Of a DNA stretch of 64,000 nucleotides, positions 35,051 through 63,106 are shown one piece after another. A program made the translations under genes and the position numbers. This DNA comes from Octopus sinensis. Its lineage: Eukaryota. Numbering within the stretch: position 1 is the first letter of the stretch; each line of letters starts with the position of its first letter. The notes beneath the pieces are model-generated. The model was given only the letters and a program-made list of their open reading frames with translations, did no database searches and had not been told where the DNA came from. The stretch covers positions 170,128,001-170,192,000 of the forward strand of contig NC_042997.1 of assembly GCF_006345805.1 (NCBI RefSeq). Direction: 5' to 3'.

Positions 35051-38000
35051 TTACTTCTTCTTGGCCACACCAACAGTCCTACCACGACGACCGGTTGTTT
35101 TAGTGTGCTGACCTCGGACACGCAAACTAAAAACAGAAAAGAAAAGTTTATCATATAAAACCACATTGTGATGTTTCAACAACTTCAAAACATATGCATG
35201 AGAATTCTTACATTTCATTAAAAAAGAAAAAAACCCACAATAGTCATTATTATTGCAGTATTAAGTTCATGGACTTTTTTTCAAATCATGCTAGATGTAT
35301 GTCTCTAGAGAGGAAACACCCGAAATCTTGTTAATCAAACTGCAGTTAAGATTTATCCAATTATATAAAACTATCAAACAAACCAGGGGCATGAGATTCT
35401 ATTCTTGCTTTCAGAACAAAATTATTTTTTTTTCACTCCATTTAAGCAATGATTCTAGTTTCCCCAATAAAAAAAAAATGGATACTACTATCATGGCAAG
35501 TAGACTAACAATATTTAACAGATTTCTTCAAAATATCTGATTAAGTTCTCTTATAGATAAGTTATCCATGTCAGCTAAACATATGCAATTTACTTTTACA
35601 CAACCAGACTCCTCCAACGTGTAATCTTAGCATATCAGCAACATGCTATCTTAAAACATTTCCAATAAAAAATATACTGACCCCCAGAAATGACGCAGAC
35701 CACGATGAGCTCTGATCTTTTTTAACCGCTCCAAATCTTCACGCAACTTGTTGTCAAGAGCATTTGCCATAATTTGACTGTATTTTCCATCTTTAATGTC
35801 CTTCTGTCTGTTAAGGAACCAGTCAGGAATTTTGTACTGACGAGGGTTTGACATGACTGTTAAAACTCTATCAACCTGAAATAAAAAAAACAAGCAGCAT
35901 TACTAACACAACTCTGAAATAGTTTAGTTGACATCAAAGAATGATTATAGAAAAGGCATTATCCCATCATGAATAGTTGTCAGATTCAATTTAGATGCAG
36001 GCAACTACACTGTAATGAAGTCAAATTATCAAAAGCTAAATTTTTGGTTCATGAATAACAGATCCAAAATGAAATTTACATTTGACTAAATTATGAATTA
36101 TATGCACAAGGTTCCTAGGTATAAGCTTTCTTTATCTCTCCCTTTTAGCTTGCCCAAGATTTGTACTGCTTTCGCCTCACTCATCAATCAGCATTGAAAA
36201 TCCATGGACAATCTTTCGTTTTGACTCGAAATAATGTAAACAATGAATTCGGTCGTTTCCGTGACCACATGTTGTCTTGTCAACTGTCAGTTGGGAAGAG
36301 AAAGCTAATGGGTTGTGTGTGCGCCCTTATTCTTGTTCTTCTGTGTATGTGTGTGTTGGTTCTGTTTTTATGTATTTATATGTTGTGGAATGTAGAAATA
36401 ACACAGAGGAACAAACAAGTCAAAACGAAAGATCGCCCATCCATGTCCTGATGGATCTTTTCACCCACCAGCACTATTGAGATTGTTTTATGCCAGTGGA
36501 TAAGGGGAATGAGACACAATGCATGTTCGTGTAGGGGAGTTACATAGCCACTCAAACTTTCTAGAAAAGGGCGAGAAATGGAAAACATATACAATTCTTC
36601 ATAGGAAAATAAAGAAAAAACTGGAATTTTTACCTCCTCTTCTGTCATTTCACCAGCACGTTTATTTAAATCAATATTGGCCTTTTTACAAACTACATTG
36701 GCAAATCGTCGTCCAATACCCTAAAGAAAACAAAACAGCGTAAATTTATTCGAATGAACAAACATTAAGCATCAAATCCAAAACGTTTTAGAGAGAAAAA
36801 AGCAGCAAAAATTAAGTGAAATGGCTGCAAATTTCAAGCCCTACAAAACTCACCTTAATGGCAGTAATAGCAAACATCGACTTCCTACGACCGTCGATGT
36901 TCGTATTCATAATACGCAGAATATGCTGAAACTTCTCTGGGATTACGAGCGACTGAAAGTAAAAAGAAAACGTGTAAATTTAATAGTAGAGAGGGTTGGA
37001 TAAGTAGTACCCAATTCTTTAGTTTGGTAAATTCGCAGCTAACTAGTTTTGAGGCTTAAATCATTCTTTCTCATGTAGGATTTTACAGACGCCGATTTGG
37101 GATTGTATATGCGATTTATTACAAGCATTTGCATGAATAGTTTAACCATGTAACGGAAGACTATATTAACAAACCCTATCTTAATTAAAAACAATATGCA
37201 ACACAAGCCAAAATGTACGTGTGGAGCATTTTCATTCGTGATAAAGTGTGCTTTACATGATCTAAACAAAATTCATCGCGCTACTGTTTTGTTCAATTCC
37301 AGATCACTGAGTCAATCAATAAAGGTGTTACAACGATTCCCTTTTTATTTAGATCTTGTGAGTGAATTTGGTAGACGGAAACTGAAAGAAGCCCGTCGTA
37401 TACATATATATATGTGTGTTTATCCCTCCAACATCGCTTGACAACCGATGGTGGTGAGTTTACGTCCCCGTAACTTAGCGGTTCGGCAAAAGAAACCAAT
37501 AGAATTTACGTTCTGAGCTTCCAATGAATAAGTCCTGGGATCGATTTGCTCGACTAAAGGCGGTGCTCCAGCATGGCCAGTCAAATCATTGAAACAAGTA
37601 AAAGAAATCCAGCGGTCTTCCCAATAACCTCGATGGCTTTCGTATACAAACAGAAACCATCATACAGTTTTTTCTAAAGAATAAACAATGCTACAGATGT
37701 TTTCAAGTATTAAATATTTAACAAGGGCAGTAATGTTTAATTCAATTTAGTTATTCCACCCGACTATTCATGTGTGGACGACGAAACGAAATCCTACATG
37801 TTGCTAAAAGGGAGCACGGCTTCCGAGTGGTTTAAACGAAGTATTGTAATATTTAATTTTACAATTTATATTAGATAATATTAATATGGTAGGTAAAAGA
37901 CCTGCTGGAAGCTCAAACTACAGTGGACTAATGAAGGGTTTTCTTTAAAAAAGCACTAGAGAACGGTGCGTGGCAGCAGAATAACTTTCTCAGGTTTTAT

Positions 38001-38512
38001 CTCTTACAGATTGAAGTTGAATCTGTACGGGCTTTGTGGGTGGAAATTTTTAATAATAGGATATTAGTAACTTGAAAACCAGAAATTTCAAATTCAAGCA
38101 ATAATTTCACCACGTGAAGAAATTGTGCTCCGTATACTTTACAGATTAATCTAAGGCAATATTCCAGGTGCACGAAAACACCAGTTTTCTTTTAGTGAGA
38201 GAAATAAATTCGATAAAAGGAAATATAAGCAATATACAATACAGTGAAGTAGATATATTCATTAAAAAAATGTACAATTTTGTTTGAAAATAAATTTATG
38301 GTAGACATGATTGCTGGGACACAAATGTAAGGCGGTAATATTTTAAGTAATACTCAGTAATAAATAAACAATTGATTGTTACCATAATATTGAATCTTGC
38401 ACAAAATGGATATCAAATAGTAAATACGACGTTTTTCTTGAAGATGAATTCACTAAATTATTAAGATTATAAAGGATAAAAGCAGAGATATATCGAATCA
38501 CCAACTTACCAT
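35051..38512 (-). CDS. RPS18: 40S ribosomal protein S18 (uS13), complete, 152 aa
   Basis: Minus-strand exons 38510-38512 (ATG only, then GTAAGT), 36854-36952, 36634-36720, 35682-35875, 35051-35126 total 459 nt. Translation [22 protein letters not shown]...[12 protein letters not shown]...[21 protein letters not shown]. Minus-strand AATAAA at 35013-35018. Confidence 0.98.
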
Positions 38513-38561
38513 GGTTGCAGTTTACCGGAAAAGGAAGTTTGATTGTTCACGTGACTTAAAG
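38513..38561. promoter_or_regulatory. Bidirectional core promoter and 5' UTRs of RPS18/VPS52
   Basis: 49 bp between divergent ATGs. Minus-strand TOP/TCT-like tract CTTCCTTTTCC at 38527-38537, ETS-like CCGGAA and GGAAGT, palindromic E-box TCACGTGA at 38547-38554, YY1-like AAGATGG over the VPS52 ATG. Confidence 0.8.
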
Positions 38562-41500
38562 ATGGATACCACAGCAGAAGACACTAATGGAGAAGAGGTG
38601 GGACAATTCTGTTTTGATATTATATGACTGCCTTGCTTTATTGTGTTAAGTAGGAATAAATTATATGTCTGTTATCAACATCTGTAAAATAAATATTATA
38701 ATTCTTTGTTATTTCTTGCAACTGAAATGTGCAAACACGTAGTTGTACGTAATGTGAATGTACATGTAATGTTTTAATAATAATAATAAAGTCTGTCAAT
38801 TTGTTTGTCTTGCAATGTTAACTGGCGATAGCATTGGATGTAAATACTTATAAGTCATTTAAATTTTATTTATTGAAAATGATACAATCAAAAAATCCCT
38901 AATTGTTTATGTATTGTTATCGTTTCAGTTAAAGACATACACTTTCATTTAATTGAAAGCTTGTCATACAAATGCTATGTTCTAAACTAGTTTAAGATAT
39001 TAAAATCAAGCGTTCGGGTATCTCATCACTTTTTTATAGAGTAGAGTTTGTTTTAAGGAAAAGTTGGTTGCTGTCTCTCATCGGCCCAGAAAGCCCTGTT
39101 TTAAAAGCAAGGGTTTGGCTTTTTGTTTACGCAACAAACAGTTCTGATTGTTTATTAATAATACTGGTACTTTAAAAAAAACATTTTTCACTTCTGATCC
39201 AAGACAAAATTGTTACCGCAGCTTGCGTTATCCATTACAACCACCTTCCACATAGCTTTCATTATAAAATGTGAAAAAGAAATAATTGCATATAGAGCAG
39301 TGGTTCCTCACCTGCAAGTACCTGCAAACCCCATGGGGGGTGTGAGAAGGCATTTCAGGATTGTATGACAAATAGGGAGAGTATATACTTTATTAAAATT
39401 GCTGTTCAAAATAAAATTATTTACTAAATCTTCAAAATAACTTTATTTTATTGAACACTCACCGAAATTTAATTATTTTTTAAAAATATGTATATAGAGA
39501 AAAATATATTTAATTCTTTAGAGATTACGACTGAGCGCTGTGTCCTTGTTCCATTTGCCACGGCATACTTATTGGATTTAGTTCTCGTTTATTAATTAAA
39601 CAAAACCTAAGAATTGTTTGATCGGCAAGCAGACTTAGGGGTCGTAAACAGGAAAAAAGTTCCATGTTTTGATTAAAGTCACTAAAGAAATCATTGAATT
39701 TAATGTTCACTTAATATGGGATTGATGTAGTTAGCAAGATTCTTGACATGAACTCGTGCGTTGGAACAGATTTTGTTGTATCTTACGAGGGTCATTATGT
39801 CCATAATAAACATACGCACTGTTTTTATTTCAATCCTTGTATTATTATTGTTGTTGTTGTTATTATTATATATAGAGAAGAAATAGTGTTAATGAACAAT
39901 CGTTAACAATATATCCAATAATAAAATTATTTTACAGCCACTTTTTTAAGGTATTAAAATAGGATACAACTAAAACATGATGATCATGGCTAGAGTGCCT
40001 TTGATCATAGGTCTGCTTGATCTGGAGCTAAACAGCACTTAACATCATTTCAGTTGTTTGTATCTATGCACACACAACGAAATTAGTCTAGTGTGTTTGT
40101 ATGTACCATTCCTTAGCATCACCACTACCATATAGTATATCCTGCAACAAACACCAATAATAGGCTGTTGTTCAATATTTTCATCTTATCTGCATGAATC
40201 CATTTGGAGAAATATGTCTGGCACTAGTGAACACACTTTTGGTTGTCCTATTTCTCCCGTAGAGGAACTGAGCATCATTTGTATTTTGAGACATAAAAAT
40301 AGAAAGTTTGCTGGAATGGATTGTAAACAAAATAGAATTTTGTTTACAATCTTTCCAGCAAACTTTCTAACAATGTTTATTTAAAAAATTTGCTCCTGAG
40401 TTTTTCCCAGAAGAACTGTCATCATCTAGTAGCACCATGTATGTTTCCTTGCTTATCTGTAATTTGATCTACAGTTATGCATCCCGATTCATAGTGGAGC
40501 TTGTAAACTACAAAGTTATAGCTACAATCCTAAGCAGGTTAATGAATTTAATGAATAAAAGATAAAAGAAAAATTTGAAGATCAAGTAGAAATATATGTA
40601 GATCAGATTTGAGAATGTTAGATGATGGATGTTTGGAATATATAGGCTGATGTACTTCATGCCTCTTTAATTTGTTGCGAAGCTGGAGAAGGAAAAAAAA
40701 CCTGATGTTGAATTGATAATGATTTTCATAAAAATAACACTGATGCAACTGAGTACAAAATAAATCTACTGTCTTTAATGAAGCTTTTCTAAAATATATA
40801 TTTATTCCATAGGGCCTTGGAAATTTTGATGTGGTCCCTAATCTTGGAGTTTTAGACCTTACTTCAGAAGATTTCCTCCTGGATGAAGTTGATTGTAAGT
40901 CTCTCTCTATGTTGTTGTGTATTTACTTTCAAAGATTATTATATCTTTGGATTTTGAAATTTTTAATTGATTATTTTCAAAACATATATGCTGATGATGA
41001 ACATTGCATTCATTTTTCCTAGAAATTAATAATAAGGAAGTAAGAAGTTTTTAAAATTATATGGTTTTAGCCAATTGAAAGCCTCCATTGCTGACATATT
41101 TGAAAGCCTCCATTGCTAAAGTTGCAACTGTCATCTTGGAGATGAGCACAAACAAAGATAAGGCAACAAAGATGAAACTCTTATGTGGTTTCTCAACCTG
41201 CAAAAAAAATAGCAGCCAAATCTTCCTATAACTACAAAACAACATCTGATAAAACAAAAAGGATGGCACATTATATAACATAGTTAGGGTTAGACTGTTT
41301 CTGAAAATAAGCTGGAATTGGTTTGAATGCTATTGATCACAGATATACTTCAAAAATTGTATTTTTTTAGCCATTCATAATTAGAGTACCAATGCATCAT
41401 AATATGGACCTAAGTTCATACTGACTCTAAATATGATTTTTATATGTAATCATGAACACATTGTATGTATTAATGACAAACATATTCAGCATATTATATA

Positions 41501-44500
41501 TATTATATATAAAATCAAATAAGTGATATTTAAAACTCATGCTACTCTTTTCTGTTTTACTTTTAGTATAATTTGTATTTTTAGTTTTGATGAATTTTTA
41601 TTCAAATATTTCAATATTTGTTACTTTCTAGTTCATATACAACAAAATCTGGAAGATGATATTGTGAAAGAAGCTTTGAAAACAGTGAGTAAATATTTTC
41701 TGAAATTAATTTAAGAACCCTTCCATACAGGCATCTTAGTATTCACTCCTTTGTTTCAGTTATTAATTGTGCATATGTGAAATTTTTTCTCCTTAAGCAG
41801 TATTTTATTTTTATTTTATAGGGTGTTGATCTCAGACAATATTCCAAGCAAATAGAGAAAGAATTATTAGAGGTTGAAAATGCTTCTATACAGGGATGTA
41901 TCCTTTTCATGATATTGTATGTTTTATTTACATGATTTTCATTCTAAACTGTTTTGTCAATGTTTAAACATAATAATGATGTTTGCTTGGTATAATGATT
42001 TGGATATGTTGGCTGTATATTTTTTGTTACATTTTTACTTCCATTTAGATTAGGCAGTTTGGAAAAAAATTAAACATTTGCTTTAATGGATAAAATAAAT
42101 TTTTTGGTTCTACATCTGTTGTATTACCAGACATTTCAGAATGGTACCTGTTGTTACTGAGGTAAACCAAAGCAAGAAGTTATACATGTTCTGGTTAAGT
42201 GCCCAATACAATGATTGTAGTAAAATTTGATTTCAAGAGCATAGGATTTGTATCTTATCAAAATGTAAACTGTTCCTCTGTCATGAATTGCACTGAAACC
42301 TAAATCCCAACTCTTTGAGAAGCTGATACATTTATGGTTAGATTTCTTTCTGTTGCCAACTATGGAATGAAAGAAAGAAAGAGGCTGATATTATGGTAAT
42401 TGGGACACAACTTAGTCACTCTATTGACTTAACTAACTATAACTATCTTGAAAAGAGAAAGAAGTGTCTATGTATAGTTAGGTTGACACTGAGATGAAAA
42501 TCAACATTTATATTTGCTTGTGCATTTCAGCAATCTGCCTGTTTCAAAATGCATAAAGCATAAAGTTTTATACTATTTGAAGTATGTAAAATATACTTAT
42601 CAGACACTGTTTTATGGTGTAAGTTCTATAATATTTATTATTTTTTGAAATGAAAATAAATATCATGAATTTTATTCTTCATTTAATATTATTGAAGGTA
42701 TTTATTATTTTCTGAGAACTTTAGAGTCTTGAATCTGCCAAATGGCAAGTTGAGGTATTTATAATTCTCTAAAGAAATTAGTGAAGTTTGATGGATTAAA
42801 ATAGTTCTAACGATAAATCAAAACCATGTTGCAGAACCAATTTTTTTGTGACATTTGCCCTTAACTGCATTTAAAGATATCAAAGAGAGCCAAAATATTG
42901 CCAGTCTTCACAAACAGATAGCAGCATGTGATACCATCCTAGAGGTAATTTCTATAATTTCCACACATATTATTGATGTTTATTTCTTCACTCTTTTTAT
43001 TTCTTGTACTTTTGCCCACACTGTGTAGTTTTGTGGGGTAATGATAAATTTAGCTGTGGGTGAATGGTACTTCTTTATTCCAACTGATATACTATTCTTC
43101 AGTATTCGACAACACATGACATCACACTATAAATGCAACTAGTAGATGTTACTTATAGGGCCTGCATTGAGCAAACACATCGTCAGACAATCAAAACAAA
43201 AATAAAATCTGATTGTCTGATGATATGTTTACTCTGTTGGCCCTATAAGTTGCATCAACTAATGGCTTATCTATAGTGTGAGATCTTGTTTTACTAAAAC
43301 ATGTAAAAATTGGCATAAAGAAGTGTCACATTCTATCCATGCTCTTTTCTCTTATTTTATATACAACAGGGTGTATAAATGTGCTTTTCACACAGTTATA
43401 AGAGTTTGAACTCTTATTTCTAGCAATAATTCTGCTTCTAGCACCCACAGTCACAATTAGTGATGACTAAATTTTTCCTATATGGCTTTATATAGTGGTT
43501 AGCTGCTGACATTAATTTTTAGTATACACATCGACATTTTGCCAAATCAGCCATAAATTTATATGGTAAATATATATGTTGACAGAGGAATTTAGCTGTT
43601 CCATCAAAGCAATGGAGTCCTAATTACTGGATGAAACTATAGTCCTCTGATGTATCTTTGCTCATGGGACAGTTATCTATCCTATCAGTGTATATAAATC
43701 TGCTTTTCGTGCAGCTATAAGAGTTTTAACTCTTATTTCTAGCAATAACTGTACTTTTAGCACCCACAGTTACAATTAGTGTTGACTGAATTTTTCCTTT
43801 ATGGCTTTGTATTGTGGCTAGCTACTTACATTAATTTATATATATATATATATATATATATATCATCATCATCATTTAATGTCCGTTCTCCATGCTAGCA
43901 TGGGTTGGACGGTTCGACCGAGGATCTGGGAAGCCAGAAGGCTGCACCAGGCTCCGGTCTTATCTGGCAATGTTTCTACAGCTGGATGCCCTTCCTAACG
44001 CCAACCACTATATATATATAGGCTTGGTGATCAATTATTCCGGCACCAGAGAGAAATAGAAAAGTTCCTGGTGGTAGATGGGTTTTTTGATGTCTGTTTT
44101 CCATATCTGAAAGACTGTTTGATTATTTATATTTACAACACAGAAAAGAGAGAAGACAAAACAGAGAAAAATAATTTCACTGATTTATGAATCTTAAACT
44201 ATTTCAATTGCAGAGGATGGAACAAATGTTAAATGGTTTCCAGGCTGATTTAAGTAGTATCAGTAATGAAATTCAAACATTACAAGAACAGTCGATTGCC
44301 ATGAACATCAAACTCAAGAATAGACAGGTTAGTACCAATATTAGATTTCAATTTCCTTTTATTCATTTATAGTTATCAATAAGAACCACAGCAATCTGAA
44401 TTCCTTGGGTGCTGATTGGTGAGTCAAAGTTTTGGCAGTTTTGCCCTGTCACCAGTGCAGTTTTGTCCTTCTACCAAACATGTAATGCTGAATGACTCAA

Positions 44501-47500
44501 TAACTTATTTGTAAATAGATGTGATGTGTGGCTGCAGTCTGTCACAAGAAGCTGTGCAACACTGGAAACAAGTGTTTCGTTAATTTGAAGTATTAAGTAA
44601 ACATTGTCCAATCAATGAAATGTGCAGTAGATTTGTGTGTTTCTTTCTAAGTGGGGGATGTCTCTCAGACATTTGCTGCTGTATAAGCTGGGGTAAGATT
44701 CTACATATCTTACCTGCCATGAGGAGACACATTACAGAAGTAGGAAACATACATTTCCTATTTTGACTTTAGTGAAACCTGAAGTTAGTAAATTTATTAA
44801 AGAATTATTCAAGTATAATGAGTTATATATAATGAGTGTTGGATGTTATAAAGTAAAATATTTACACTTGGTTTGCAGCCTCATTTTCCATTATAAATCT
44901 GAGGCCTTGTATATGTATAATCATTTGATAATGCAATGTTGTAAGGTAGTTTTACTCATATTCATATATTTAGCATCATGATCTTCATTTTACATATGCT
45001 TTTCTATAATGGTATGGGTTGGATGGGTTATTAGGGTTCAGGTAAGTTATTTTTATCATTGCTTGTTAAGTTTCATATTTGGTATGGTTTCTACTGCTGG
45101 ATGGCCTTCTTATTACCAACTACTTTACTGAGTGAACTGGGTGCATTTTATTATGGCACCAACACTAGAAAGGTGTCTTACCCAAGCAAAAGTAAAGAAT
45201 CCTTTCTCTTTACATTGTCTCCATTCATTCATTCATTCATTCATTCCTTTCTTTTCCACACAACTTGGTGTGTAGAAAGGGGAATTTTTTACTAAATCAT
45301 TGGTACTGTTGTGCATTACTATCTCTAATCACATAGGTAGCATGCTGTAAGAAAGGAGTTATAGAAGTGATAGGGTGGGAGTATGATAGAGAAAATGATG
45401 GAGAGAGTAATGAAGAAAGGTCATAGTGAAACGAGAGAGAGAGAAAAACATAAGAGGAAGAGGAAGTGATAGGAACCTTTCTGATTTTCTGTATGTAAAT
45501 TTTTCATGCTACCTCAAACAATAATCCATTAAACATAACTTCATTGTTTCAGGCTGTGCGGGGAGAACTGAGTCAGTTTGTTGACGAAATGGTAATTCCT
45601 GAGAGTATGGTGTCGTAAGTAACTTACATATAATACATACGTTTTATCCAAAGGTCAGTGTTTCAATCAAGAGTTCATGAACTAATCAATCTTCATCACT
45701 GTCATAGAATCTCTTGCAAGTAATCAATTCTTATAAGCTGACAGGAGCGTTAGCCATTTTTGTACATCAAAGAAGAAAAACTGATGTGAAAATAATTAAA
45801 CTTCTTTAAGGTTCAAATATATTGGGATCTCATAATTTCCTCTTTTAGTGTTGACATACCAAAATGTTAAGGTATCCTTTGTCTAACATGGAACACACTA
45901 TTGTGTATACATAACTGAATTAGGAACCAAGGCCTGGATACAAGAATTCAGTGTAATACTCATCAACATTATCATAATTTTCTATCTGCTTTTTCATGCT
46001 GGCATGAATTGCATGAGTCACATTGCATTTTACCACTCATTGCAGTCCTTGATACACACAAAAGGTCCCTTTTGGATATTTTTATCTATAATTATTGTTT
46101 TCTTAGATAGGTTACAGAATCCCCACCTTCTCTTTTTGTTCCTTTTCATTTTTTTTGGCTTGGTTTTTACTGCAGGGTGTCCTTCCTATCGTCTGAACTG
46201 GGTGCAGTTTATTCTACCAACAGCATTTGAAAAATTACCCATAGCAAGACTAAAGTGTCTTCTCTTCTCTGCATTAATCTTTTTGTTATTGTTGTTCTCT
46301 GAGAGGGATTGCATCCACTATGTCTTGCAGAGTCCACAATATCTCTATTTAGTTATTCCTTTCAAGAGATAATTTGGGACACAGGGCTAAAGCTGAATGT
46401 TGTATTGGCTTCCTGGAATATTTTCACTGGCTCATAAAATGATTTGAACTGCAAGTTTACAAAACATTTATTTTTTATACAATCCTTGTCATAGTATCAA
46501 TTAAGCACCAGATACACTGACATTTTATTGATTGTTAAATATATTATATTTTATAGTTTATGAATAAGAGTTCTTAATCTGAAGTTTGACAATTAAAGCA
46601 AAGATAATGTTACTGTGTAACTTTGGCCTTGATTGTCTTCCATAACATGTTTATTATAAATATATTCCTCCATAGGCACAAGCCACACAAGCTGGGAGAG
46701 GAGTACATTTGACTGTATCAACTACAAACTTAGACTAGTTCATATATGTTTCCAGCATGCTGTCCTTAGAATATAAATGTATATAATTATGGTGCTATAT
46801 TAATTCTGTCAGCCATGACTTTCAGTTTTGTATAGAAATAAATGAAAGTATATAGGGAAAATTCAATGAAATACTGTTTTATGAGAAATAGTAAATATAT
46901 AGAAGTGCCAGTGGCACATAAAAAGCTCCTCTCAAGTGTTGGGCTTCACAAAGGCAATAACCAAGACCTATGACATTATCTTGTGCTTGAGAAGAAGACC
47001 CATCAAGCCAAGTAAAATCACAGTCATAGCAGTTACCAGTGTCACACAAATGGCACCCATGCCGGTGCTACGTAAAAGCACCCACTACACTCTTGAAGTG
47101 GTTGGCGTTAGGAAGGGCACCCAGCCCTAGAAACCATGCTAAATCAGACTGGAGTCTGGTGCAGCCTTCCAGGTTGCCAGCCCTGGTCAAACTGTCTAAC
47201 CTATGCCAGCATGGACAATGGAAGCTAAATGATGATGATGATGATGATAGAAGTATGATTGGAATCCAGTGTAAATTATAGACACCCAAGAGGTTGGATC
47301 ACAGGTAGGCTGGCAGAGAAGGTGGAGTTCATATGTGATCTTAGAGGATAGTAACTCCAAATAAATAACTGACTCTGATCATGACAACTAGCACGGAAAA
47401 GAGACATAAAATAATGATGCTGATAAGAAATATAAAGGGTTCTTTTTTATTTGCTGGCATCTGCTGATGATTCACTTTAATTTATTTTTGTATTTTAGAT

Positions 47501-48521
47501 GTTGTAGGAAGGTGGTTTCTGTAGCTTTGCTTCTGAGTTTATTCACTTTCACTATTCTTACAGTGTCTGTGTTTTTTTTTTTTAACCTTTCAGCATAATT
47601 GAAATCTGAATGTAATTTTTCTGTGAACAGACATATCGTGGATACCCCAGTGACTGAGCGAGAATTTATGGAACAACTGAATGAATTGAATCATAAAATA
47701 AATTTTGTCAAGGAACAGTCGTTTAAAGAGGCTCGCTCTTGCCAGGATGTCCGTGATATTCTTGAAAAACTCAAGACTAAGGTATATTACTAAACTAATC
47801 AAAAGCATCTGACATAATTATTCATTTACATGTTGTGAATCATTGTTATCGTTTTAAAACTTGCAAGTTTCTATTTTATTAACTATAACATATCTCTTAC
47901 GTTGATACATTGAAGAAGGATATAGTTGATTGAATCAACGCTAAGAGTTGCTGAAGCATGGAACAAACTGCCGGCACCAGTTGTTAGTTGTCGGAGCACT
48001 GTATCCTTCAAAACTTCCATGCTTCCTGAGATTCACCAACACTACACCTGATTTTCTCCCCTCCATACACACGCAAGCATGTATCTGACTCATACACTGT
48101 TCACTTTCATTGTTCACTTGTACATTACTGCGTATGCTTTATACGCACTTTTGACAAGTTGTGGTGCACCTGAGCACTGTATACAATTTCATTATTATTA
48201 GCAGGTGTTTATTTATTGGGTATCAGAACAAGAAAAGGCAAATTGTGTGATATCATTTGAACTCCAAATACTATAAGACAGTATTAAATATTATATTAAT
48301 GGCATTCCCCTGTGTCTGTCTCTGAATCACCTATTTTTAACTGTGACAAAAATAATAACCATTTTTATATTTCTACAAGGTTATTGGACTATAACTATGT
48401 TGGGGGTAATGTTTTCGAGGTACTCAATTTATCAGGTTGTTTACCGGAGTTATGTCCCTTCCAGAAAATTATTCCTCCGTCACTTCGAATTTAAATGCAA
48501 CAATTATGCAGTCTCTCTCTC

Positions 48522-48568
<47 letters not shown>

Positions 48569-50520
48569 GAGGCTTCGTACAATTTCTGTCAACCAGCTCC
48601 ATATATACACAAAAGTAATCAACCTACCCGATTATCATATAAGACACTTGTCCAAGATGTCATGCGTTAGGTTCGAACCCAGTACTACGTGATTACGAAG
48701 CAAATTTCGTAAGTCATCTAAAGTTCTTTTATATTTTTAGGCTTTAAGCAAAATACGGGAATACCTTCTTCAGAAGATTTACTCATTTAGGAAACCGATG
48801 ACCAATTACCAAGTACCTCAAAACACTATGCTTAAATTCAGGTCGGTTGCTACCTTTCTGTTGCATTTTTTTTCTTTATTTTTGGAAGTGTATTTTGTAA
48901 GGAATTTGATATTGAGATAAATGTGGAGAATGGCAACGTCATTTGCAAAAAGTGTAGAATGTATAAAAACATCAATAAAATAATGTTTGCAATTTTTTTT
49001 TAGTCCAAGGTATACTTAGGTAACTTACAAGTATTTAATTAGAAAAAAAAACATTATAAAAAAATCCAATTAATTTTCATATATCATGATGTATGATTCA
49101 GTCGTACCTTTGTAAGTATTAAGCCAAAAAAAAAAAAAAAAAAAAGATAATTTGAAAACTTAGAAGTATCTAATTAGAAATGACATAAAAATATTGTAAG
49201 AGTAGAAATCTCAAAACGATGCTATTAGTAAATGATAATTTACTTTCGTTTTGGGATTTCAAAGAAAACATTTCTTTTTTTTTTTTGCATTCCCCATTTA
49301 TTGGAAATTGCGCTACAATTCCCCACACTTGCTGACATTTATAATGTAGAAGCCCTGTGTTTTGTGGTTATGAAGTATATGTTAACCCTCAATTCAGCGC
49401 TGATTGTATAGACCTATGATCAAAAAGCGTTCCAGTAATAAGCATTTCGTATTTTAGTTTGAAGATGTTAAGGGTGTGCTTGGAAAGATATTTTACTGCT
49501 ATTTCTAGCAGGTGCAATTACTACTCAAAAAATTATCTTGACCTGCGTACTGATTAGTAATTACGGAGTTGTGTCCCTTAATTATTTCTTTTTAGTGATA
49601 TTTAGCGCCCATACGCTTTAGCATAGCAAGGGAAGTCACTATGTTAAATCACAATCCACGTTTATAACGAGGATTGAAGATGAAGTAGTGTTGTTATTTA
49701 CACTCTATAAGTATGTGAGACAATGTTGTGTATGTATTAGTGTGTGTGTGTATATATTTATTTTATCTAGTTTCAGCTCACGAGCTGTGGCCATGCTGGG
49801 GCACCGCCATTTCAAACAATATATATATATAACTTATAAATAAGGGCAAACGAAAAAAATTTCTAATGCCAAATATGCCGAAATTAGACACCCTGTCCAT
49901 AACCATATAATTTTTCACAATACGCACGCTATTCAAAAAAAGGTCGACAGAAATCTCTAAAAAAATTTCATTATTACCACATTGGACAAGTATCTCATTT
50001 ATTTCTTTGCCATATTTATCACTGATGAAGGGAGGGTTCTTACGAACTAACCCTGAAATCGGTCCGATGTGGTCATAATGGAATTCTTTAGAGATTTCTG
50101 TCGACCTTTTTTTGAGTAGCATGTGTATTGTGAAAAATTATATGGTTATGGACAGGGTGTCTAATTTCGGCATATTTGGCATTAGAAATTTTTTCGTTTG
50201 CCCTTATTTATAAGTTGTTTATGAATTTAACCTTTAAAGGTATTTTTTAATATGCTGGCCATTGATGAAATTTTTTTTTCGAAAAAATTTTATCCTACAT
50301 TAAATATATATATATATATTTGTTGAAATGGAAAGATGAATTTTCTTGTTACGGATTATTCAAAAGTTTAACCGATACCTGGGTAGCAAAAATCACCTGC
50401 AATATGGTATCCTTATTAATCAGAATTTGGAAAATTGTGGCCTTTGAAACATGTATAGAATGTAATAAAAGGAATTCTGTACAATCTTCGTTCAACTCCA
50501 TTTCTTCATTCACTAATATA

Positions 50521-50558
<38 letters not shown>

Positions 50559-51045
50559 CACCTAAATGTAGCTAACCCTTAAGGGTCGATGCTACTGTAG
50601 CTTGTAGCCCCAGGAAGACATCTCCTCCAGCTAGCTATTGACACACTATCTGTGCCCTGGTGGCAAATATACTTCACGATGACAGAGATTTATCATTGCT
50701 TGTTTGCACTTTTTCAAGATCAGTGACTTTTCGTCACTGGAAAAAGTATATATATTTGCATTGAGAACCACTTCTCATGGCCAACCAGTGGTTGTCACAC
50801 ACTGATGACAGATTAGTATCCAGAAACTCGGGTTCGTGTGTATCACGTCAGGCTGGAGATGGTAACGATGACTTCCCTTTGCAAATACTGATAGGGCACA
50901 GATAGTGTGTCAATAGCTAGGGAGGAGATATCTTCCTGGGGCTACAAGCTATAGGAGCATCGACTCTTAAGGGTTAGCCACATTTAGGTGGCAAATATAC
51001 TTCATGATGTCGTGCAGCTACTGTTTATAACTTGCTCAGAGATTT

Positions 51046-51090
<45 letters not shown>

Positions 51091-54000
51091 AGTAAATCAT
51101 AAATCCAAAATAGAAACACACTCTAAGTTATAGAGCAGTAGAGTATACAGATAAAGATAGATATGGGCAGTCTATGGGGTTACCCTGGGTTTCACATCCA
51201 TAATAGCTGGTCTCTAGTGTACTCTGGGTTTCACGTCCCTAATGCGTATAGCTTTACAGCATTTATTCAGACTCTAAAGCCCATTGGTCTATGGCTTTTC
51301 TAGCCATAGGCTAGAGGGTTTTAGGGTTTGAAGAAATGCTGTAAAGCTAAATACTTTATGGACGTGAAATCCATGGTAACCCCATAGACTGGCCATTTCT
51401 ATCTTTATCCATGCATGCATGCATGTTAATATTGACTTCAAGTTAATTTTGTTATCTTCATTAGAAAGCAAGTAAGGTGAAACTTCGAAGTTACTGTCAA
51501 TTTATTTTTCCTTGTAAAATCCAAATAAATATGATGTATTCTTTAAATATCTTGAGTGATCCTTTCATTAATGTTTTACAGTTATATATAATCTCATTTG
51601 GCAAATACTCTACTGAAAATTTACTTCAGTTGAACATTATAGGTATGTCTGTTTGTCTTGCTAGGTTCTTCAATGAATTCCTCATGAGCCATGAAAGACA
51701 AGTAGCCAAAGAGATTCGTGATGAATATGTGGACACTATGAGCAAAGTTTATTATTCTTATTTTAAAGGATACACAAGTCGACTCATGAAACTTCAGGTA
51801 TTCTTTTATGGTTTATTATTTACATATTTATCTAGCAAGATTTTCCAAAAATAATTATTTTAAATGAAGGGAACTATGGATTCAGCTAATTATTAAAAGT
51901 TTTAGCTGATGAATATGAAAAAAAGAGAGGGCTCCATGAAGACTGCAAATGTTCTCACCATCCCTACCCCTCCCTACCCCTAGTCTCGACCTATGTAAGG
52001 TAATGTTCATACAGTGCAAAATATGAAAGGCTAGCGTTATGCAGGTTGTACTGAAGGCTACTTTACTACTTCATTTCTTGCACATGAATTCTGCCAAATG
52101 CGAGCTTTCTTTTCAGGTACACGAAGCTACTGTCCACCGTCCCAGGGTCTCTAGAGCCCATGCCTCCCACACCTCAACGTTGGCACTCTGAAAGGTAGGT
52201 CTGGTGAGATAGTCGAGATGCTTGAACGGAGATGTGTGGATATATGTTGCATGCAAGAAATAAGGTGGAGAGGAGATCAGCTAGGTTCCTCACAGGCAAG
52301 GAACGCAGGTACAAGATTTTCTGGGCAGGGAACACTGACGGGGTTGGTGGCGTGGGTATACTTATCGCTGAGAAATGGGTAGATAAAGTAATTGAGGTAA
52401 TCAGAGTATGTGACAGAATACTTAAGATTAGATTAGTGCTTCATCATAGTTTAGCAACCATTATATCAGCCTATGCTCCTCAGTCGGGGCTACCCGATGG
52501 ACAGAAAGACCGATTCTATGACACTCTACTGCAGACTACCTCGTTGACGAACGACAGAGACCTTATCTTTGTGGCTGGTGACTTCAATGGTCACGTTGGA
52601 CGACATGCTGGGGGCTTCCATGGCGTACATGGAGGCTATGGCTATGGCTCCCGCAACGAGGAGGGAACCAGGCTGCTGGAGTTCTGCGATGCAAATAATC
52701 TTATGATTTGCAACACTAACTTCAGGAAACCTACCAGCCACCTAGTCACTTACCAATCGGGCCAACATACCAGCCAAATTGACTACATCCTTACAAGGCA
52801 AAGGGAGAGATGGCTGCTTATAAATGCCAAAACCTTCCAGGTGAAGAATGTACCCCACAACATAGACTGGTAGTTAGTGACTTTAGGATCAGGACTAGGA
52901 GGACAACCAGAAGACGACAAATATGGAGAAGAAGGATCTGGAAGCTTAAAGATCCTGCAAATGGACAGAGATTTAGGGACATATTACTTGAAGCCTCTGA
53001 CGAAGTAGAAGGGGATAGAGCATCACAGGGGGTAGAAGACAGCTGGACGTTTCTAAGGGACAACCTGCTGAGAGCCACTGACCAGATCTGTGGCTGGTGC
53101 AAAGTCCCCTCTCGACCTAGAATAACGTGGTGGTGGAACAATATTGTAGACAGGGCTATTAGAGAAAGAGACAGGCTTGGAAGGTCTGGAAAAATGGGGG
53201 TAGCAGGGGATTGTATCAGACTGCCAAAAGAGAAGCTAGGAGACAGGTTTATTTAGCCAGAGGGGAAGCAGATAAGAAAAAATTTGCCAATGTTCTGCGC
53301 CGTGAGGACCAAAGACTGGAGGTGTTTCGTGTTGCAAGACAGTGTGTGAGAGAGAATCGTGATGTGGTGTAGGAGAGAAGTGTGTTCGCATGGAAGATGG
53401 TTCACTTGCGCTAAATGAGGATGCAAAGAGAGAGGTTTGGAGATGCCACTATGAAAGGTTGCTGAATGAAGAAAATGAATGGGATAAAGAGAGTCTGCCG
53501 AATGTTGACCCAACAGAGGGACCAGCTATCCGAGTTGATAGTTCCGTGGTAGCTAAGGCAATTAGAAGCATGAAGACAGGGAAGCCCCAGGCCCATCAGG
53601 AATCACTGCAGAGATGCTCAAAATGTCTGGTAGTGTCGGCTATAGCCTAGTCACCCGTATAGTTAATCAGGTGATACACAAAGGGGTCATACCCAATGAC
53701 TGGTGTAGCAGTATAATAGTCAACTGCTACAAAGGTAAAGGTGATGCCCTAGATACAAATAACTACAGAGGTATCAAGCTGTTGGACCAGGTGATGAAGG
53801 TTACGGAGAGGGTCATAGCCCAACTAATTAGAGAGAGAGTTAGTTTAGATGAGATGCAGTTTGGGTTTGTGCCAGGGAAAAGTACTACTGATGCTATATT
53901 CCTGGTAAGGCAGCTGCAGGAGAAATACCTAGCCAAAGATAAGCCCCTGTACCTGGCTTTTGTTGACATGGAGAAAGCCTTCGACAGGTCCCCCGATCCC

Positions 54001-57000
54001 TTATCTGGTGGGCAATGAGGAAACTAGGGATAGATGAATGGTTAGTGAGAGCTGTGCGGGCCATGTACAGGGACGCCGCTAGTAGGGTGAGGGTTGGAAA
54101 TGTACAGTGAAGAATTCCGGGTAGAGGTAGGAGTCCACCAAGGCTCAGTACTCAGCCCCCTCCTATTTATCATAGTCCTCCAGGCAATAACGGAGGAATT
54201 CAAGACAGGATGCCCTTGGGAGCTCCTCTATGCTGATGACCTTGCTCTAATTGCTGAGTCGCTATCAGAACTGGAGGAGAAGTTTCAGGTGTGGAAACAA
54301 GGATTAGAATCGAAGGGCCTCAGAGTCAATCTAGCTAAAACCAAAGTCGTAATCAGTAGGAAGGTAGACAAATCACAAACACCTTCAGGTAGATGGCCCT
54401 GCTCGATCTGTAGAAAAGGTGTAGGTAGAAACTCTATAAGATGCACCAAGTGTAAGCTATGGACACATAAGAGATGCAGCAATGTCAAAGGAAGGCTAAC
54501 TAGGAAGATGGTTTTTGTATGTGGCAGATGCTCAGGAACAATAAACACTGAAAATGCTCTGAGACCAACTTCCGTCACTTTCCAGGGAGAAAAACTAGAA
54601 ATAGTTGATAGTTTCCGTTACCTAGGTGACCAAGTCAGCAGCGGGGGCGGGTGTGCTGAAAGTGTAACTGCTAGAGTAAGAATAGCTTGGGCAAAGTTCA
54701 GAGAGCTCTTACCTCTGCTGGTGACAAAAGGCCTCTCGCACAGAGTGAAAGGCAGACTGTATGATGCGTGTGTACGAACAGCCATGCTACATGGCAGTGA
54801 AACATGGGCCGTGACTGCCGAGGATATGCGTAAGCTTGCTAGAAATGAAGCCAGTATGCTCCGATGGATGTGTAATGCCGGTACTCACACTCGGCAGAGT
54901 GTAAGTACCTTGAGAGAAAAGCTGGACCTAAGAAGCATCAGTTGTGGTGTGCAAGAGAGACGTTTGCGCTGGTATGGTCATGTGGCGAGAATGGATGAAG
55001 ATAGTTGTGTGAAAAAGTGCCACACCCTAGCGGTTGAGGGAACCTGTGGAAGAGGCAGACCCAGGAAAACCTGGGACGAGGTGGTGAAGCACGACCTTCG
55101 AACTTTAGGTCTCACTGAGGAAATGACTAGAGACCGAGACCTCTGGAAGTGTGCTGTGCGCGAGAAGACCCGGCAGGACAAGTGAGTCCATAACCCGTGG
55201 CCTTCTACATGGGATGGAGCCAGCCTACGTATGCATACCTTCCCTTCTTGGGACACAAAACTCTACTTGTGAAGATGTGATGAGGCAAGTGAGGATCAGA
55301 ATCGAAATCGATCAATGGAAATTGCGGATGTGCTACCAGTGCCGGTGGCATGTCAAAACTCTGCTTGTGAAGACCCGTTGAGGCAAGTGAGGATCAGAAT
55401 CGAAATCGATCAATGAAATCGATCAATGGAAATTGCAGATGTGTTACCAGTGCCGGTGGCATGTAAGAGAACTTTCCGTTTCGCGACCGTTGCCAGCACC
55501 GCCCCGTTTCGTGTCCGTTGCCAGCCTCGCCTGGCCCTCGTGCCGGTGGCACATAAAAAGCACCATCCGTTCGTGGCCGTTTGCCAGCTCTGTCTGGCAC
55601 CAGTGCGGGTGGCACGTAAAAAGCACCCACTACACTCACGGAGTGGTTGGCGTTAGGAAGGGCATCCAGCCATAGAAACACTGCCAGATTTGACTGGGCC
55701 TGATGAAGCCTTCTGGCTTCACAGACCCCAGTAGAAACGTCCAACCCATGCTAGCATGGAAAACGGACGCTAAACGATGATGATGATGATGATGATGATG
55801 TCATCATTATCATCATCATCATCGTTTAACATCCGCTTTCCATGCTAGCATGGGTTGGACAATTTGACTGAGGTCTGGCAAACCAGATGGCTGCACCAGG
55901 CCCCAATCTGATCTGGCAGGGTTTCCACAGCTGGATGCCCTTCCTAATGCCAACCACTCCGAGAGTGTAGTGGATGCTTTTATATACCACCGGCACGAGG
56001 GCCAGTCAGGCGATACTGGCAACGGCCATGCTCAAATGGTGCTTTTTATGAGCCACCTGCACAGGAGCCAGTCCAGCGGCACTGGCAACGACCACACTTG
56101 AATGTTTTTTCATGTGCCACCAGTACAAGTGCCAGTGTATAAAGTAATTATATTTTGTACTAGAAGTTAATTTCCATTTTTTTCATATCACTTATTTCTC
56201 TGATAACTTTTAGAAGAATCAACTAGTAGATACAGTAAAGCAGACTACAGCTGCAGAGAGTAAAACCAAGACTTCAACATTATTCTCCATCACTTTATCA
56301 AAATTGACTTTTTAAAGGTGCCTAATCTTTAAAGATCATTATCTTCTGGCCTCAGTGTTTTAATAAACATTTAACTCTTCAGCATTTAAACTGGCCAAAT
56401 ATGTAATATTTGTAGCTTCAAGATTTTAATGATGTCATTGTTTATTTTTAGAATGACACTGTAGGGTTACCCTACAGTGTCATTTTAAAAGTAAACAATC
56501 ATATCATTGAAATAATGATGAGACAAGATAATACATGATAAATTTTTTAAAAAGTGTTTAAATAAGTATTATATTTGATAAATTAATTTGAATGCGAAAG
56601 GGTTAAATAACAAAGACTATAGATGATTATTGCATGTAATGACACTATTTGTAATGTGTGATGTAACAGGCAGTTTGTAGTGAACATCACTTAGCTTTTC
56701 TTATCTAGTTTACCCTCTCTGCTAATCCACAAGTCATATGATATTTTCAAGGGGAGGACTTCATTAGTGATCTCACTTGTAGAAGATGGGGAGGAAAAAA
56801 CATGGTTTAGACTATTTTTAGAATTCCATTTTAGAAGGTATTTTGTGACCATATGACAGGTTAATATTTCTAACTGAATGTGTTGCTTACATTTCTTTTA
56901 CAGTATGAAGAGCTTGCAGACAAAGATGACTTGATGGGAATTGAAGATACAGCAAAGAAAGATATCCTTAAATTTCAATATTTCTAAATTTTATATTCCT

Positions 57001-60000
57001 ACATTCATTCACCAGGGTATTTGTCACTCCAGCTGGAGGGATCTCTCCCTTGATTCTTGTTAACACCATCATCATCATTTAGCATCTGCCTTCCATGCTG
57101 GCATGGGGTAAATGGTTTGATTGGAACTGGCAAGTTGAAGAGCTACATCAAGTTCCAGTCTAATTTGGCATAGTTTCTACAGCTGGATGCCCTTCCTATC
57201 GCCATCCACTCCAAGAGTGTAATGGGTGCTTTTTATGTGTCACCAGCATGGGTGCCAGTCATGTGACACCGGCATCAGCCACGACTATGATTTCACTTGG
57301 TTTGACGAGTCTTCTCAAGCACAGCATATCACCAAAGGTCTCAATCACTTGTCATTGCCTCTCTGAGGCCCAACATTTCAAACATCATGCTTCACCACCT
57401 CGTCCCATGTCTTCCTGGGCCTACCTCTTCCACAGGTTCTCTCCACAGTTAGAGATTGGCACTTCTTCACACAGCTGTCCTCATCTATACCCATCACATA
57501 GCCATACCAGTGCAGTTGCCTCTCTTACACACCCCATCTGATGCCTCTTATGTCCAACTTTTCTCTCAAGATGCTCACTCTGTCATACATGCACACTGAC
57601 TTTGCACATCCAGTGAAGCATACTAGCTTCATTTTTTTCAAGTCAACGCATATCCTCAGCAGTTACAGCCCATGTTTCACTGCTGTGTTGCATAACTGTT
57701 CACACACAAGCATCATACAAATCTGCCTTTCACTTTGAGGGAGAGGTCTTTAGTTACCAACAGAGGTAGGAGCTCTCTGAATTTTCCCAGCCTGTTCTTA
57801 TGCTAGCAACTACACTCTCAGAACGTCCCCCTCTGCTACTGACTTGGTCACCTAGATAATGGAAGCTATCAACTATTTATTAATGCTGGCATTTGTTTCA
57901 AGTATTTTCTATACTCACTACTTTAAGGTTTTGTTGGTGAGCTGGGTTTTTTTGTCTTTTAGGTACCTAGGTGAAATTTAATTTAGAATGTAAAGAATCA
58001 GAGTAAATATTACAGGGCTTCTGATCCAACATTTTTGCAATTTGTCTGTCCACCACTCTTGAATAGTAATTTTTTTATCAACCTTAAAAGGATAGAAGGT
58101 AAAGTTGACCTCAGCAAGATTTGCAGAGTAAGGATAAATATCACTAAGTGTTCTGTCCAACACTCTAACAACATTGCCAATTCACTGCCTTTTATGTTTT
58201 ATATTAATTAATGTAATTAGTTTAAGATGTACCATATTCGAAAGTAAGTCATTTCACATTGTCATGTCACTGAAATATATTCAAAAATGACTCCTTAACG
58301 TTCACAAGGTTTTTCTCTTCAAAGCCTTCTTTAAAGAACAGATCCACGGTGTTCACTGTAGGAGATAGAGGGGAAGTACTAACTACTCAGCTTGAAGCTC
58401 CTGTTATTGTTCCACATGCTGCTCAGAAAAATGAAACCCGGGTATGTACCAGCTATAATTAATGTCTCCTTTCTTTGAATAGTTCTTGTTGACTATGGAT
58501 ATCCTACGAAGATAACTGATTGAATGCTTAAAACTCTTGAGATATCTTGTGACAACTGAAAATGTTTTGGTTGCTTGTCAGATGAGTTGTAGTGCATCTG
58601 AGCACTGTATACAGTAAGTTCATTCATTCATCAGGGTATTTGTCACTCCTGGAGGGATCCCTCTCTTGATTCTGGTTGACACTTTCTATTAGGGTTTAAA
58701 GGGTTAAATGTAATGTGGTTCCATTATAAAGACAATGAGATTTACCTGCTACTGGTCAAACAATTGCATAAAAGTTCTTTCTGTTTATACTCTGTGTCAG
58801 AATTGGTAATTTATTTCCATTACACAGAGTTATGATTGTAGTCAAAGAGCTGAGGAACAGATTATTTGCTTTATTGAAGCTACTTCAATTTAGATCCTAT
58901 ATATTACCTCTAACCCTTATACTTCAAATAAATAACATCATGGAGTTAATTCAGTTTAATTCACTCTTCACTTCTAAAAACTTTGATTTGTATTTTCATC
59001 ATCATTAAGTATCCTTTTTTTTATTCTGTCATGGGTTGGGTGGTTCAATGTGAACTGATGAGCCAGAAAGCTGCACCAAGCTCCAACGTCTGCTCTGGCA
59101 TAGTTTCTACTGCTGGATGTCCTTCATAGCAAGAACCACTTCACAGAGTGTACTGGGTGCTTTTTTTGTGGCACCTGCATTGGAGAAGCTTCCACATACC
59201 CACAAGACTTCACCAAGTACTGGTGAAGTTACCAAGACTCCTCAACTGAGTGGGGTATAGTATTGAGAGATATAAAAGTATGATACAAGGACAAGAGCTG
59301 GTGCCTTACTGAAGGGATGAATATATGATTTTCCTATCTGGAAAGAGAGGGAGAGAGAGATGTGAGGTCAAAGTACAGGGTGAATATGAGAAAGAGAGAA
59401 AAGGATAGAAGAATAGGAAAGGTGTACCTTCATTATTATTTGTTTTACAGTGTTTGTGTTTCTTGTCAAGAGAAATATATTTTATAACATTTCTATTTTT
59501 CTTTCCATCTTCTTTAGTATACATTTGAAAAACTGTTTCGCAGTCAGCACTACACGTTGATGGATAATTGTTGTCGAGAATATTTGTTTGTTGTGGACTT
59601 CTTCATGGTATCGGTTGGAAGTACAGCAGCTCAGGAACTTTTCAACAGCATCATGGGGAAAACACTATCAATGTTTTTGGTATGTAGCTAGTTTTCTCTT
59701 GCTTGATTTAATTTCTACACATTCAACATTTTCTTTATCTACATTTATGTTATATATGTACTAGTTACTTCACAAGCCAGCGAAGGTGCCTCTGTCTATT
59801 GCAATGAGTGAAGTGAAATTATTATCTGCCCATCTATGAAAAAGGACATTGATACATTGGATAATATAGTCCTAGATAGATTATGTCTAACAAAGACAAT
59901 CATCATTGCTGGAACAGTTTTGATCATTGGGTAACGTTATCAGGTGTAGCTTAGAGCTAAACAATAATATTGTTTAGGTATTTAGTTTTTATATGTCCAT

Positions 60001-60376: not shown

Positions 60377-60434
<58 letters not shown>

Positions 60435-63024: not shown

Positions 63025-63106
63025 GTAAGTTTTCATCTTCATTTTTGAAATTGTTTCTTTTATAATCAACTTGAAAGATAAATCATACTACCCTAACTGC
63101 GATATA

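What the first reader, a model, noticed from the sequence alone, without database searches (positions are those of the whole stretch)
38510..38597. Ultra-compact divergent gene pair: 49 bp between the RPS18 and VPS52 start codons
Seen: RPS18 ATG at 38512-38510, TOP-like tract starting near 38537, VPS52 ATG at 38562. Only 24 nt separate the predicted RPS18 start site from the VPS52 ATG, too little for two side-by-side pre-initiation complexes, so VPS52 has either a tiny 5' UTR or overlaps RPS18 exon 1 in antisense. A palindromic TCACGTGA(C) E-box/CLEAR-like site sits in the gap, with ETS-like and YY1-like words. Inference: one element may couple a ribosomal protein gene to an endosome-Golgi trafficking gene through Myc/USF/MITF-TFE factors, in a region otherwise full of transposons.
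Basis: partly seen in the sequence, partly recalled or inferred. Interest (0 to 1): 0.75.

Follow-up and report, generated by a model that had tools for sequence, protein, structure and literature searches.

The report
Ancient RPS18–VPS52 back-to-back gene pair
In this octopus genome a ribosomal protein gene (RPS18) and a vesicle-traffic gene (VPS52) start back-to-back only 49 bases apart, as they do in humans; the same pairing turns up in ticks, snails, clams and a worm-like animal, so it is likely an ancient animal arrangement, probably held together by overlapping promoters.

Summary
Observation confirmed: 49 nt lie between the RPS18 and VPS52 start codons, both genes are intact and spliced from these first exons, and TCACGTGA occurs once in the window, in the gap. 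The compactness is not an octopus oddity: human RPS18-VPS52 is a listed divergent pair with 28 bp between annotated starts. New here: the pair is adjacent by record numbering in 14 of 27 invertebrate species seen (ticks, a snail, bivalves, cephalopods) and head-to-head in two non-mollusc contigs, so it likely predates the protostome-deuterostome split; I found it in print only for vertebrates. RNA contigs from 3 of 7 runs bridge the whole gap, which points to overlapping 5' ends. The E-box is absent from the two non-mollusc spacers, so Myc/TFE coupling cannot be what holds the pair together. Side discovery: RPS18 intron 1 carries a second ATG|GT donor 127 nt downstream (spliced in 1 of 7 runs), found at 128 and 129 nt in the two other contigs; the long mRNA keeps the whole reading frame behind a short upstream ORF, a candidate feedback switch. 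New member of a known kind; interest 0.45.

The parts
38510..38539 (-). RPS18 exon 1: short 5' leader plus the lone ATG (38512-38510) before donor 1; spliced molecules reach at least 38539
38528..38535 (-). TCT/polypyrimidine initiator match YYC+1TTTYY, predicted +1 at 38533 (start of a 5' TOP tract)
   Evidence: consensus from PMC5580651
38513..38561 (.). 49-nt spacer between the two start codons; covered without a break by single RNA contigs in X2, X6, X19
38547..38555 (.). Palindromic E-box TCACGTGA(C), 14-21 nt upstream of the predicted RPS18 +1 and 7 nt upstream of the VPS52 ATG; function untested
38559..38565 (+). AAGATGG around the VPS52 ATG, equal to the TISU/YY1 core given in PMC2518114; same word in L015, one mismatch in L017
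38511..38561 (+). Upstream in-frame ATG of VPS52 (38511-38513) sharing the CATG palindrome with the RPS18 ATG; 17 open codons; used as the start in three public octopod models
38562..38597 (+). VPS52 coding exon 1 (12 codons), spliced to 40813
38383..38509 (-). 127-nt extension of RPS18 exon 1 ending in a second ATG (38385-38383) and donor 2 (GT 38382-38381); spliced to exon 2 in run X2; gives the same 152-aa protein from the second ATG
38498..38512 (-). Four-codon upstream ORF opened by ATG 1 when donor 2 is used; stop 115 nt before the exon junction
37900..37902 (-). Third, minor RPS18 donor (CAG|GT) spliced to exon 2 in run X19
35051..36952 (-). RPS18 exons 2-5: 36854-36952, 36634-36720, 35682-35875, 35051-35126
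40813..63030 (+). VPS52 exons 2-15 (40813-40894, 41632-41684, 41822-41897, 42877-42944, ... about 62899-63030); the gene runs past the window end

Best explanation
RPS18 and VPS52 are intact, spliced genes set head-to-head 49 bp apart, and this is likely the octopus copy of a gene pair inherited from the last common ancestor of protostomes and deuterostomes, probably kept together because the two core promoters overlap. Shown: orientation, spacing, splicing, the TCT match, the same divergent pair in human, adjacency in other phyla. Inferred: the strong TCT-type RPS18 promoter keeps a small patch of chromatin open, VPS52 starts inside that patch on the other strand, the two 5' ends overlap by 30 nt or more in at least some molecules, and the two initiation complexes would load in turn rather than side by side. 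A break in the gap would cut the promoter or leader of one of two housekeeping genes, so the pair survives rearrangement without needing any shared function or any particular activator; the activator words (E-box here) turn over between lineages. Separately, RPS18 has a second ATG|GT donor about 128 nt into intron 1 that likely serves to turn RPS18 output down.
For: Human pair: opposite strands, 28 bp between annotated starts (PMC12672016 Table S1); 60 or 116 bp, kept in mouse, frog and five fishes (PMC2871058 supplement). Contigs L015 and L017 hold both genes head-to-head with 246 and 266 nt between ATGs, the same first-intron positions and a TCT match; they fall outside Mollusca. Single RNA contigs run from spliced RPS18 through 38510-38598 into VPS52 exon 1 in X2, X6, X19, three studies. 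The 17 codons read across the spacer are 15/17 identical between Octopus and Argonauta while the 12 true exon-1 codons beside them are 4/12: the spacer is under stronger constraint than the coding sequence next to it. Conserved ancient pairs are enriched for 5'-5' orientation and gaps under 1 kb (PMC3514665 passages).
Against: Record numbers give adjacency, not orientation or spacing. Contigs are unstranded and cannot show starts; 2 of 7 runs with cover did not bridge the gap and 2 of 7 laid nothing there; low-level DNA or unspliced RNA (depth 2-12 in introns) could help a bridge. Spacers of L015/L017 are five times longer and share no detectable sequence with the window, so tight overlap is not universal. 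No promoter activity was measured.
Confidence: 0.75

Rival explanations
1. E-box coupling: a Myc/USF/MiT-TFE factor on the single TCACGTGA drives both genes, tying ribosome supply to endosome-Golgi traffic, and that coupling is what selection keeps.
For: Unique, improbable motif in the gap; residues encoded across it are kept in Argonauta; a squid/cuttlefish-type VPS52 record (P0244, sister to Sepia) has a leader whose residues fit TCACGTGA, about 0.7% by chance for the 8-mer, 4.8% for the 6-mer.
Against: No CACGTG in the spacers of L015 and L017, which keep the pair. Protein-level hints do not fix the bases. E-box words are common in two-way housekeeping promoters (recalled). In fungi Vps52 is divergent with a different translation gene, eIF5A (PMC2871058), which fits a need for a strong neighbour as well as a coupling.
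Confidence: 0.15
2. No real overlap: VPS52 starts just downstream of the RPS18 start with a leader of about 10-25 nt read through a TISU-type start context, and the bridging contigs are assembly chimeras.
For: AAGATGG at the VPS52 ATG equals the TISU core, typical of 12-nt leaders (PMC2518114), also in L015; the human annotated starts do not overlap (28 bp); VPS52 contigs in X1 and X12 begin at about 38563 and 38569.
Against: Three studies bridge the gap, which with 31-letter words needs 30 nt of overlap; whole intron bins have zero cover in all four runs, so DNA carry-over is low; three public models start VPS52 at 38511. The two readings can coexist as major and minor starts.
Confidence: 0.3
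3. The overlap is translated: VPS52 mRNAs that start beyond the RPS18 ATG use the shared CATG and make a VPS52 with 17 extra, basic N-terminal residues that has its own role.
For: Open frame and strong start context at 38511; 15/17 identity and exact length kept in Argonauta; annotated so in three octopods.
Against: 37% of 17-codon stretches in the window are stop-free; DNA-level constraint on the RPS18 leader explains the identity; squid/cuttlefish records lack the extension; gene finders take the first ATG.
Confidence: 0.1
4. The second ATG|GT is an alternative first exon with its own start inside intron 1, or a tolerated cryptic donor, not a feedback switch.
For: Seen spliced in 1 of 7 runs; a third donor is also used at low depth; no shared sequence, fold or Rfam family between the donors; L015 and L017 are sisters and count as one lineage.
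Against: The X2 contig runs through ATG 1 to 38519; 127, 128, 129 nt spacing in 3 of 3 genomic loci against about 0.0005 ATGGTR per base, while the two sisters' sequences between the donors no longer align (z 1.4).
Confidence: 0.35

Closest known systems
Human and vertebrate RPS18-VPS52 divergent pair (extended MHC class II region; PMC12672016 Table S1, PMC2871058 supplement, PMC1420295)
   Same: Same two genes, opposite strands, tens of bases between starts; a pig primer printed in PMC1420295 spans the RPS18 ATG and donor and differs from the window at 1 of its first 16 bases.
   Different: Listed there for vertebrates only; here in a cephalopod, AT-rich, with an E-box in the gap and RNA contigs suggesting overlap.
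Conserved ancestral microsyntenic pairs (Irimia et al. 2012, PMC3514665), e.g. HSPD1-HSPE1, HADHA-HADHB
   Same: Unrelated neighbours kept across phyla, 5'-5', gap under 1 kb.
   Different: No shared pathway; whether this pair is in that paper's list could not be seen (supplement not readable); main text does not name it.
TCT-initiator ribosomal protein promoters with 5' TOP leaders (PMC5580651)
   Same: Exact YYC+1TTTYY match 21 nt before the ATG; also in L015 and L017.
   Different: The upstream region where activators normally bind is another gene's leader and first exon.
Ribosomal protein autoregulation by alternative 5' splice sites, RPL10A/rpl-1 type (PMC4937301)
   Same: Two donors in an early intron; the downstream one puts a stop well ahead of the junction.
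   Different: The downstream donor recreates ATG|GT, so the full reading frame survives behind a 4-11 codon upstream ORF; spacing, not sequence, is what is kept; rps-18 is not among the eight worm genes named in the passages read.
TISU/YY1 start context of very short leaders (PMC2518114)
   Same: AAGATGG core at the VPS52 ATG.
   Different: Bases after the core differ from the mammalian element as recalled; leader length unknown.

Membership tests
Divergently paired genes / bidirectional promoter | Two protein-coding genes on opposite strands with starts under 1 kb apart | tested here: met
   criterion from PMC12672016
Divergently paired genes / bidirectional promoter | One DNA fragment drives both directions through shared sites | not testable with these tools
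   needs a two-way reporter
Conserved ancestral microsyntenic pair | Neighbours in several distant animal lineages | tested here: met
   14 of 27 species within 5 record numbers, 3 more on one small scaffold; vertebrates
Conserved ancestral microsyntenic pair | 5'-5' orientation kept | tested here: met
   window, L015, L017, human; not seen for ticks, bivalves, crinoid
Conserved ancestral microsyntenic pair | Correlated expression | not testable with these tools
   only contigs were available; depth cannot rank genes
TCT-type ribosomal protein promoter | YYC+1TTTYY just upstream of the start codon | tested here: met
   single match at 38533
TCT-type ribosomal protein promoter | Transcription starts at that C and depends on TRF2 | tested here: inconclusive
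   contigs cannot show starts; some spliced molecules reach 38539 or beyond; TRF2 untested
CLEAR / MiT-TFE target | 10-base CLEAR word (GTCACGTGAC, recalled) | tested here: not met
   window has 9 of 10; 8-base core is exact
CLEAR / MiT-TFE target | Site bound by the factor and kept in relatives | tested here: inconclusive
   compatible in coleoids by protein-level hints; absent in L015, L017; binding untested
RPL10A-type splicing autoregulation | Alternative downstream 5' splice site in use, with an early stop | tested here: met
   X2 contig, 1 of 7 runs; stop before ATG 2 in 3 of 3 loci (L015 read from 501 by eye from the printed sequence)
RPL10A-type splicing autoregulation | Conserved sequence element between the two donors | tested here: not met
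   z 2.2, -0.2, 1.4 against shuffles; no fold signal; no Rfam hit there
RPL10A-type splicing autoregulation | Long isoform is unproductive, degraded by NMD, and switched by the protein itself | not testable with these tools
   the long isoform still encodes the full protein from ATG 2
TISU element | AAGAUGG core at the start codon | tested here: met
TISU element | Within about 30 nt of the transcription start | not testable with these tools
   needs capped 5' ends

The most novel reading that the evidence does not exclude
About 200 bp around the RPS18 start form an ancient two-gene control unit: overlapping antisense 5' ends, two start codons on one CATG palindrome, and a twin ATG|GT splice switch at fixed 127-129 nt spacing through which free uS13 throttles its own mRNA by putting a short upstream ORF in front of an intact reading frame, a form of ribosomal protein feedback kept across protostomes by distance rather than sequence.
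Probability: 0.25. Interest if true: 0.7.

Novelty: new member of a known kind. Interest (0 to 1): 0.45.

Why it matters
It moves a gene pair known from the vertebrate MHC region back to the common ancestor of protostomes and deuterostomes and shows it surviving the coleoid genome reshuffle. With octopus at 49 bp and human at 28 bp between starts, against about 250 bp in a worm-like lineage and breaks in amphioxus, it is a small natural series for asking whether ancient pairs persist through shared function or through physically interlocked promoters. The twin ATG|GT donor, if confirmed, adds RPS18 to the short list of ribosomal protein genes with conserved splicing control, in a form that keeps the protein-coding frame.

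Tried and rejected
Contig depths of RPS18 were far above those of VPS52 but the tool bars ranking by depth, so this was not used. Rfam: one chance hit elsewhere in L017, none between the donors; a snoRNA-sized element was considered because of the length and dropped. Folding of the segment between donors: z +1.9, -1.2, +0.1. A 12-base TISU score (recalled consensus) did not separate the VPS52 ATG (8/12) from the upstream ATG (8/12), so only the 7-base core from the paper is cited. More RPS18 loci with intron 1 were sought in viral and prokaryote collections: none in the first, only intron-less fragments and archaeal uS13 in the second. DNA upstream of L042/L043 could not be reached. RefSeq numbers far apart (Lineus, Gigantopelta, Antedon) were not counted against adjacency because the Octopus sinensis pair itself has distant numbers. 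Read-through N-termini of vertebrate RPS18 models were inspected for promoter words: too degenerate to call. Not in print as far as searched: for the invertebrate pair (listings show vertebrate MHC, QTL and methylation papers), for the second donor; supplements of PMC3514665 could not be read and the two readable files of PMC13508932 had no hit, so either may list the pair.

Full report
What is there. The window reads, on the minus strand, a pyrimidine tract, a short leader and ATG|GTAAG at 38512-38510, and on the plus strand an ATG at 38562; 49 nt lie between. Joining 38512-38510 with four downstream exons gives a 152-aa protein identical to the named Octopus RPS18, all introns GT-AG; it is the only intact copy found in G000. 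Fifteen plus-strand exons match the named Octopus VPS52 to residue 510 at 63030 and hit Pfam Vps52 families. A VPS52 exon is 100% identical to Octopus sinensis and O. vulgaris records, so the genome is an octopus. In RNA-derived contigs, VPS52 exon 1 joins 40813 in 5 of 7 runs and RPS18 exon 1 joins 36952 in 4 of 7. TCACGTGA at 38547 is the only copy in the window; 0.0002 copies are expected in 49 nt. The TCT consensus (PMC5580651, passages) matches once, +1 at 38533.

Do the 5' ends overlap? In X2, X6 and X19, from three studies, one contig runs from the spliced RPS18 junction through 38510-38598 to the end of VPS52 exon 1. With 31-letter words (inferred from the tool text and the 30-nt contig overlaps in X19) this needs opposite-strand molecules that overlap by at least 30 nt, and spliced RPS18 molecules reaching 38539. 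X1 and X12 had cover but no bridge; X21 and X24 laid nothing. Contigs are unstranded, and intron background of depth 2-12 exists, though whole intron bins are empty. Public models for O. sinensis, O. bimaculoides and Argonauta begin VPS52 at 38511, an in-frame ATG that shares the CATG palindrome with the RPS18 ATG; this is not independent of such RNA. I put real overlap in at least a minority of molecules at about 0.7. A short-leader start is also plausible: the VPS52 ATG sits in AAGATGG, the TISU core (PMC2518114, passages).

How old is the pair? Human RPS18 (+, 33272075) and VPS52 (-, 33272047) are listed 28 bp apart (PMC12672016, supplement rows; passages). PMC2871058 lists the pair at 60 or 116 bp, shared by mouse, Xenopus and five fishes only (supplement rows; passages). 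Protein searches and cluster look-ups showed both genes in 27 invertebrate species with usable record numbers or contig lengths. In 14 the numbers are consecutive or within 5: four cephalopods, the snail Batillaria, the bivalves Mactra and Mya, and seven tick records. Three share a scaffold under 3 Mb (Ruditapes, the crinoid Anneissia, the scorpion Centruroides vittatus), five share only a chromosome, and five are on different contigs (three amphioxus records, Ornithodoros, Ixodes hexagonus). 'Same contig' rests on equal contig length; numbering implies order by inference. A metagenome scan gave 45 VPS52 loci; 2 of them, L015 and L017, also hold RPS18, head-to-head, 246 and 266 nt between ATGs, with the same first introns. 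A tree places them together (100/99) outside Mollusca, in an unresolved group with annelids and a nemertean. Of 15 loci checked upstream, 13 had no RPS18; most are short or mRNA-like, but the insect-like L014 has 4.3 kb without it. Presence in vertebrates, spiralians and chelicerates is simplest as inheritance from their common ancestor (over 550 million years, recalled) with several losses.

What holds it together? Between Octopus and Argonauta the 17 codons read across the spacer are 15/17 identical and the length is exact, while the 12 real exon-1 codons are 4/12: the gap is more constrained than the coding DNA beside it. But the spacers of L015 and L017 contain no CACGTG and show no likeness to the window's. 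What all three share is the TCT match and a YY1/TISU-like start word. So the architecture is older than the E-box, which at most looks coleoid-wide (P0244 leader). The best reading is interlocked housekeeping promoters: VPS52 uses the open region of a strong ribosomal protein promoter, and the gap cannot be broken without cost. This matches the general pattern of ancient 5'-5' pairs (PMC3514665, passages). Factor binding, co-regulation and alternating complex assembly are inferred, not shown.

A second finding. X2 has a contig over 38383-38519 whose loose end is the first 19 bases of RPS18 exon 2: a second donor, 127 nt below the first, again directly preceded by ATG. Used with the same downstream exons it encodes the identical protein, and ATG 1 then opens a four-codon ORF. 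L017 and L015 have ATG|GT at 128 and 129 nt, the only other ATG|GT in their 210-nt introns, each with a stop before it; background is about 0.0005 per base. The two are sisters, so this is two lineages, but the sequence between their donors no longer aligns. No fold or Rfam family explains it. Indirect hints of wider spread: one RPS18 sequence carries two accessions and both isoform names X1 and X2 in Dreissena and Rhipicephalus, and a chimpanzee model joins exon 2 about 125 nt after the ATG donor if read as contiguous, without a second ATG; both are leads only. It works like RPL10A-type feedback splicing (PMC4937301, passages; review PMC8047918, passages) but fails that family's conserved-element test and keeps the reading frame. 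It was seen spliced in 1 of 7 runs.

What is known. The pair is known in vertebrates. Ten literature searches (listings and abstract starts) showed no paper on it in invertebrates or on the second donor. Passages of PMC1420295, PMC8405827, PMC13508932, PMC13652810 and PMC10751288 were searched: the first two place the genes together in pig, human and tilapia, the others do not name them. The pair list of PMC3514665 could not be read and may contain it.

Verdict. Observation confirmed; interpretation partly supported; new member of a known kind; interest 0.45. Most novel reading 0.25 likely, 0.7 if true.

Noticed in passing
window:38383-38509 (-); L017:6263-6393; L015:370-501: Second ATG|GT donor 127, 128 and 129 nt into RPS18 intron 1; spliced in run X2; long mRNA has a short upstream ORF and an intact main frame.
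   Followed up: yes
window:41898-42876 (+): VPS52 intron with minor-spliceosome signals: donor GTATCCTTT, branch-like CCCTTAAC at 42858-42865, AG end (consensus recalled).
   Followed up: partly
window:38510-38513: The CATG palindrome is the RPS18 start on one strand and an in-frame upstream VPS52 start on the other; three public octopod models use it.
   Followed up: partly
window:37902-38335 (-): Third RPS18 donor at 37901 used at low depth in X19; an O. vulgaris 137-aa model starting at Met16 may reflect such a form.
   Followed up: partly
window:37355-37605: High-copy, heavily transcribed short repeat inside RPS18 intron 1 (summed contig depth near 100,000).
   Followed up: no
window:52000-55200 (+): Frameshifted reverse-transcriptase-like element inside a VPS52 intron, GC 46-52% against 33% around it, with a second fragment near 57160-57860.
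   Followed up: no
L047-L054: Short intron-less eukaryote-like RPS18 pieces (77-89% identity) sit in several bacterial genome assemblies as tiny low-coverage contigs, likely contamination.
   Followed up: no
PMC2871058 supplement: In 13 fungi Vps52 is divergently paired with eIF5A, another translation gene.
   Followed up: no
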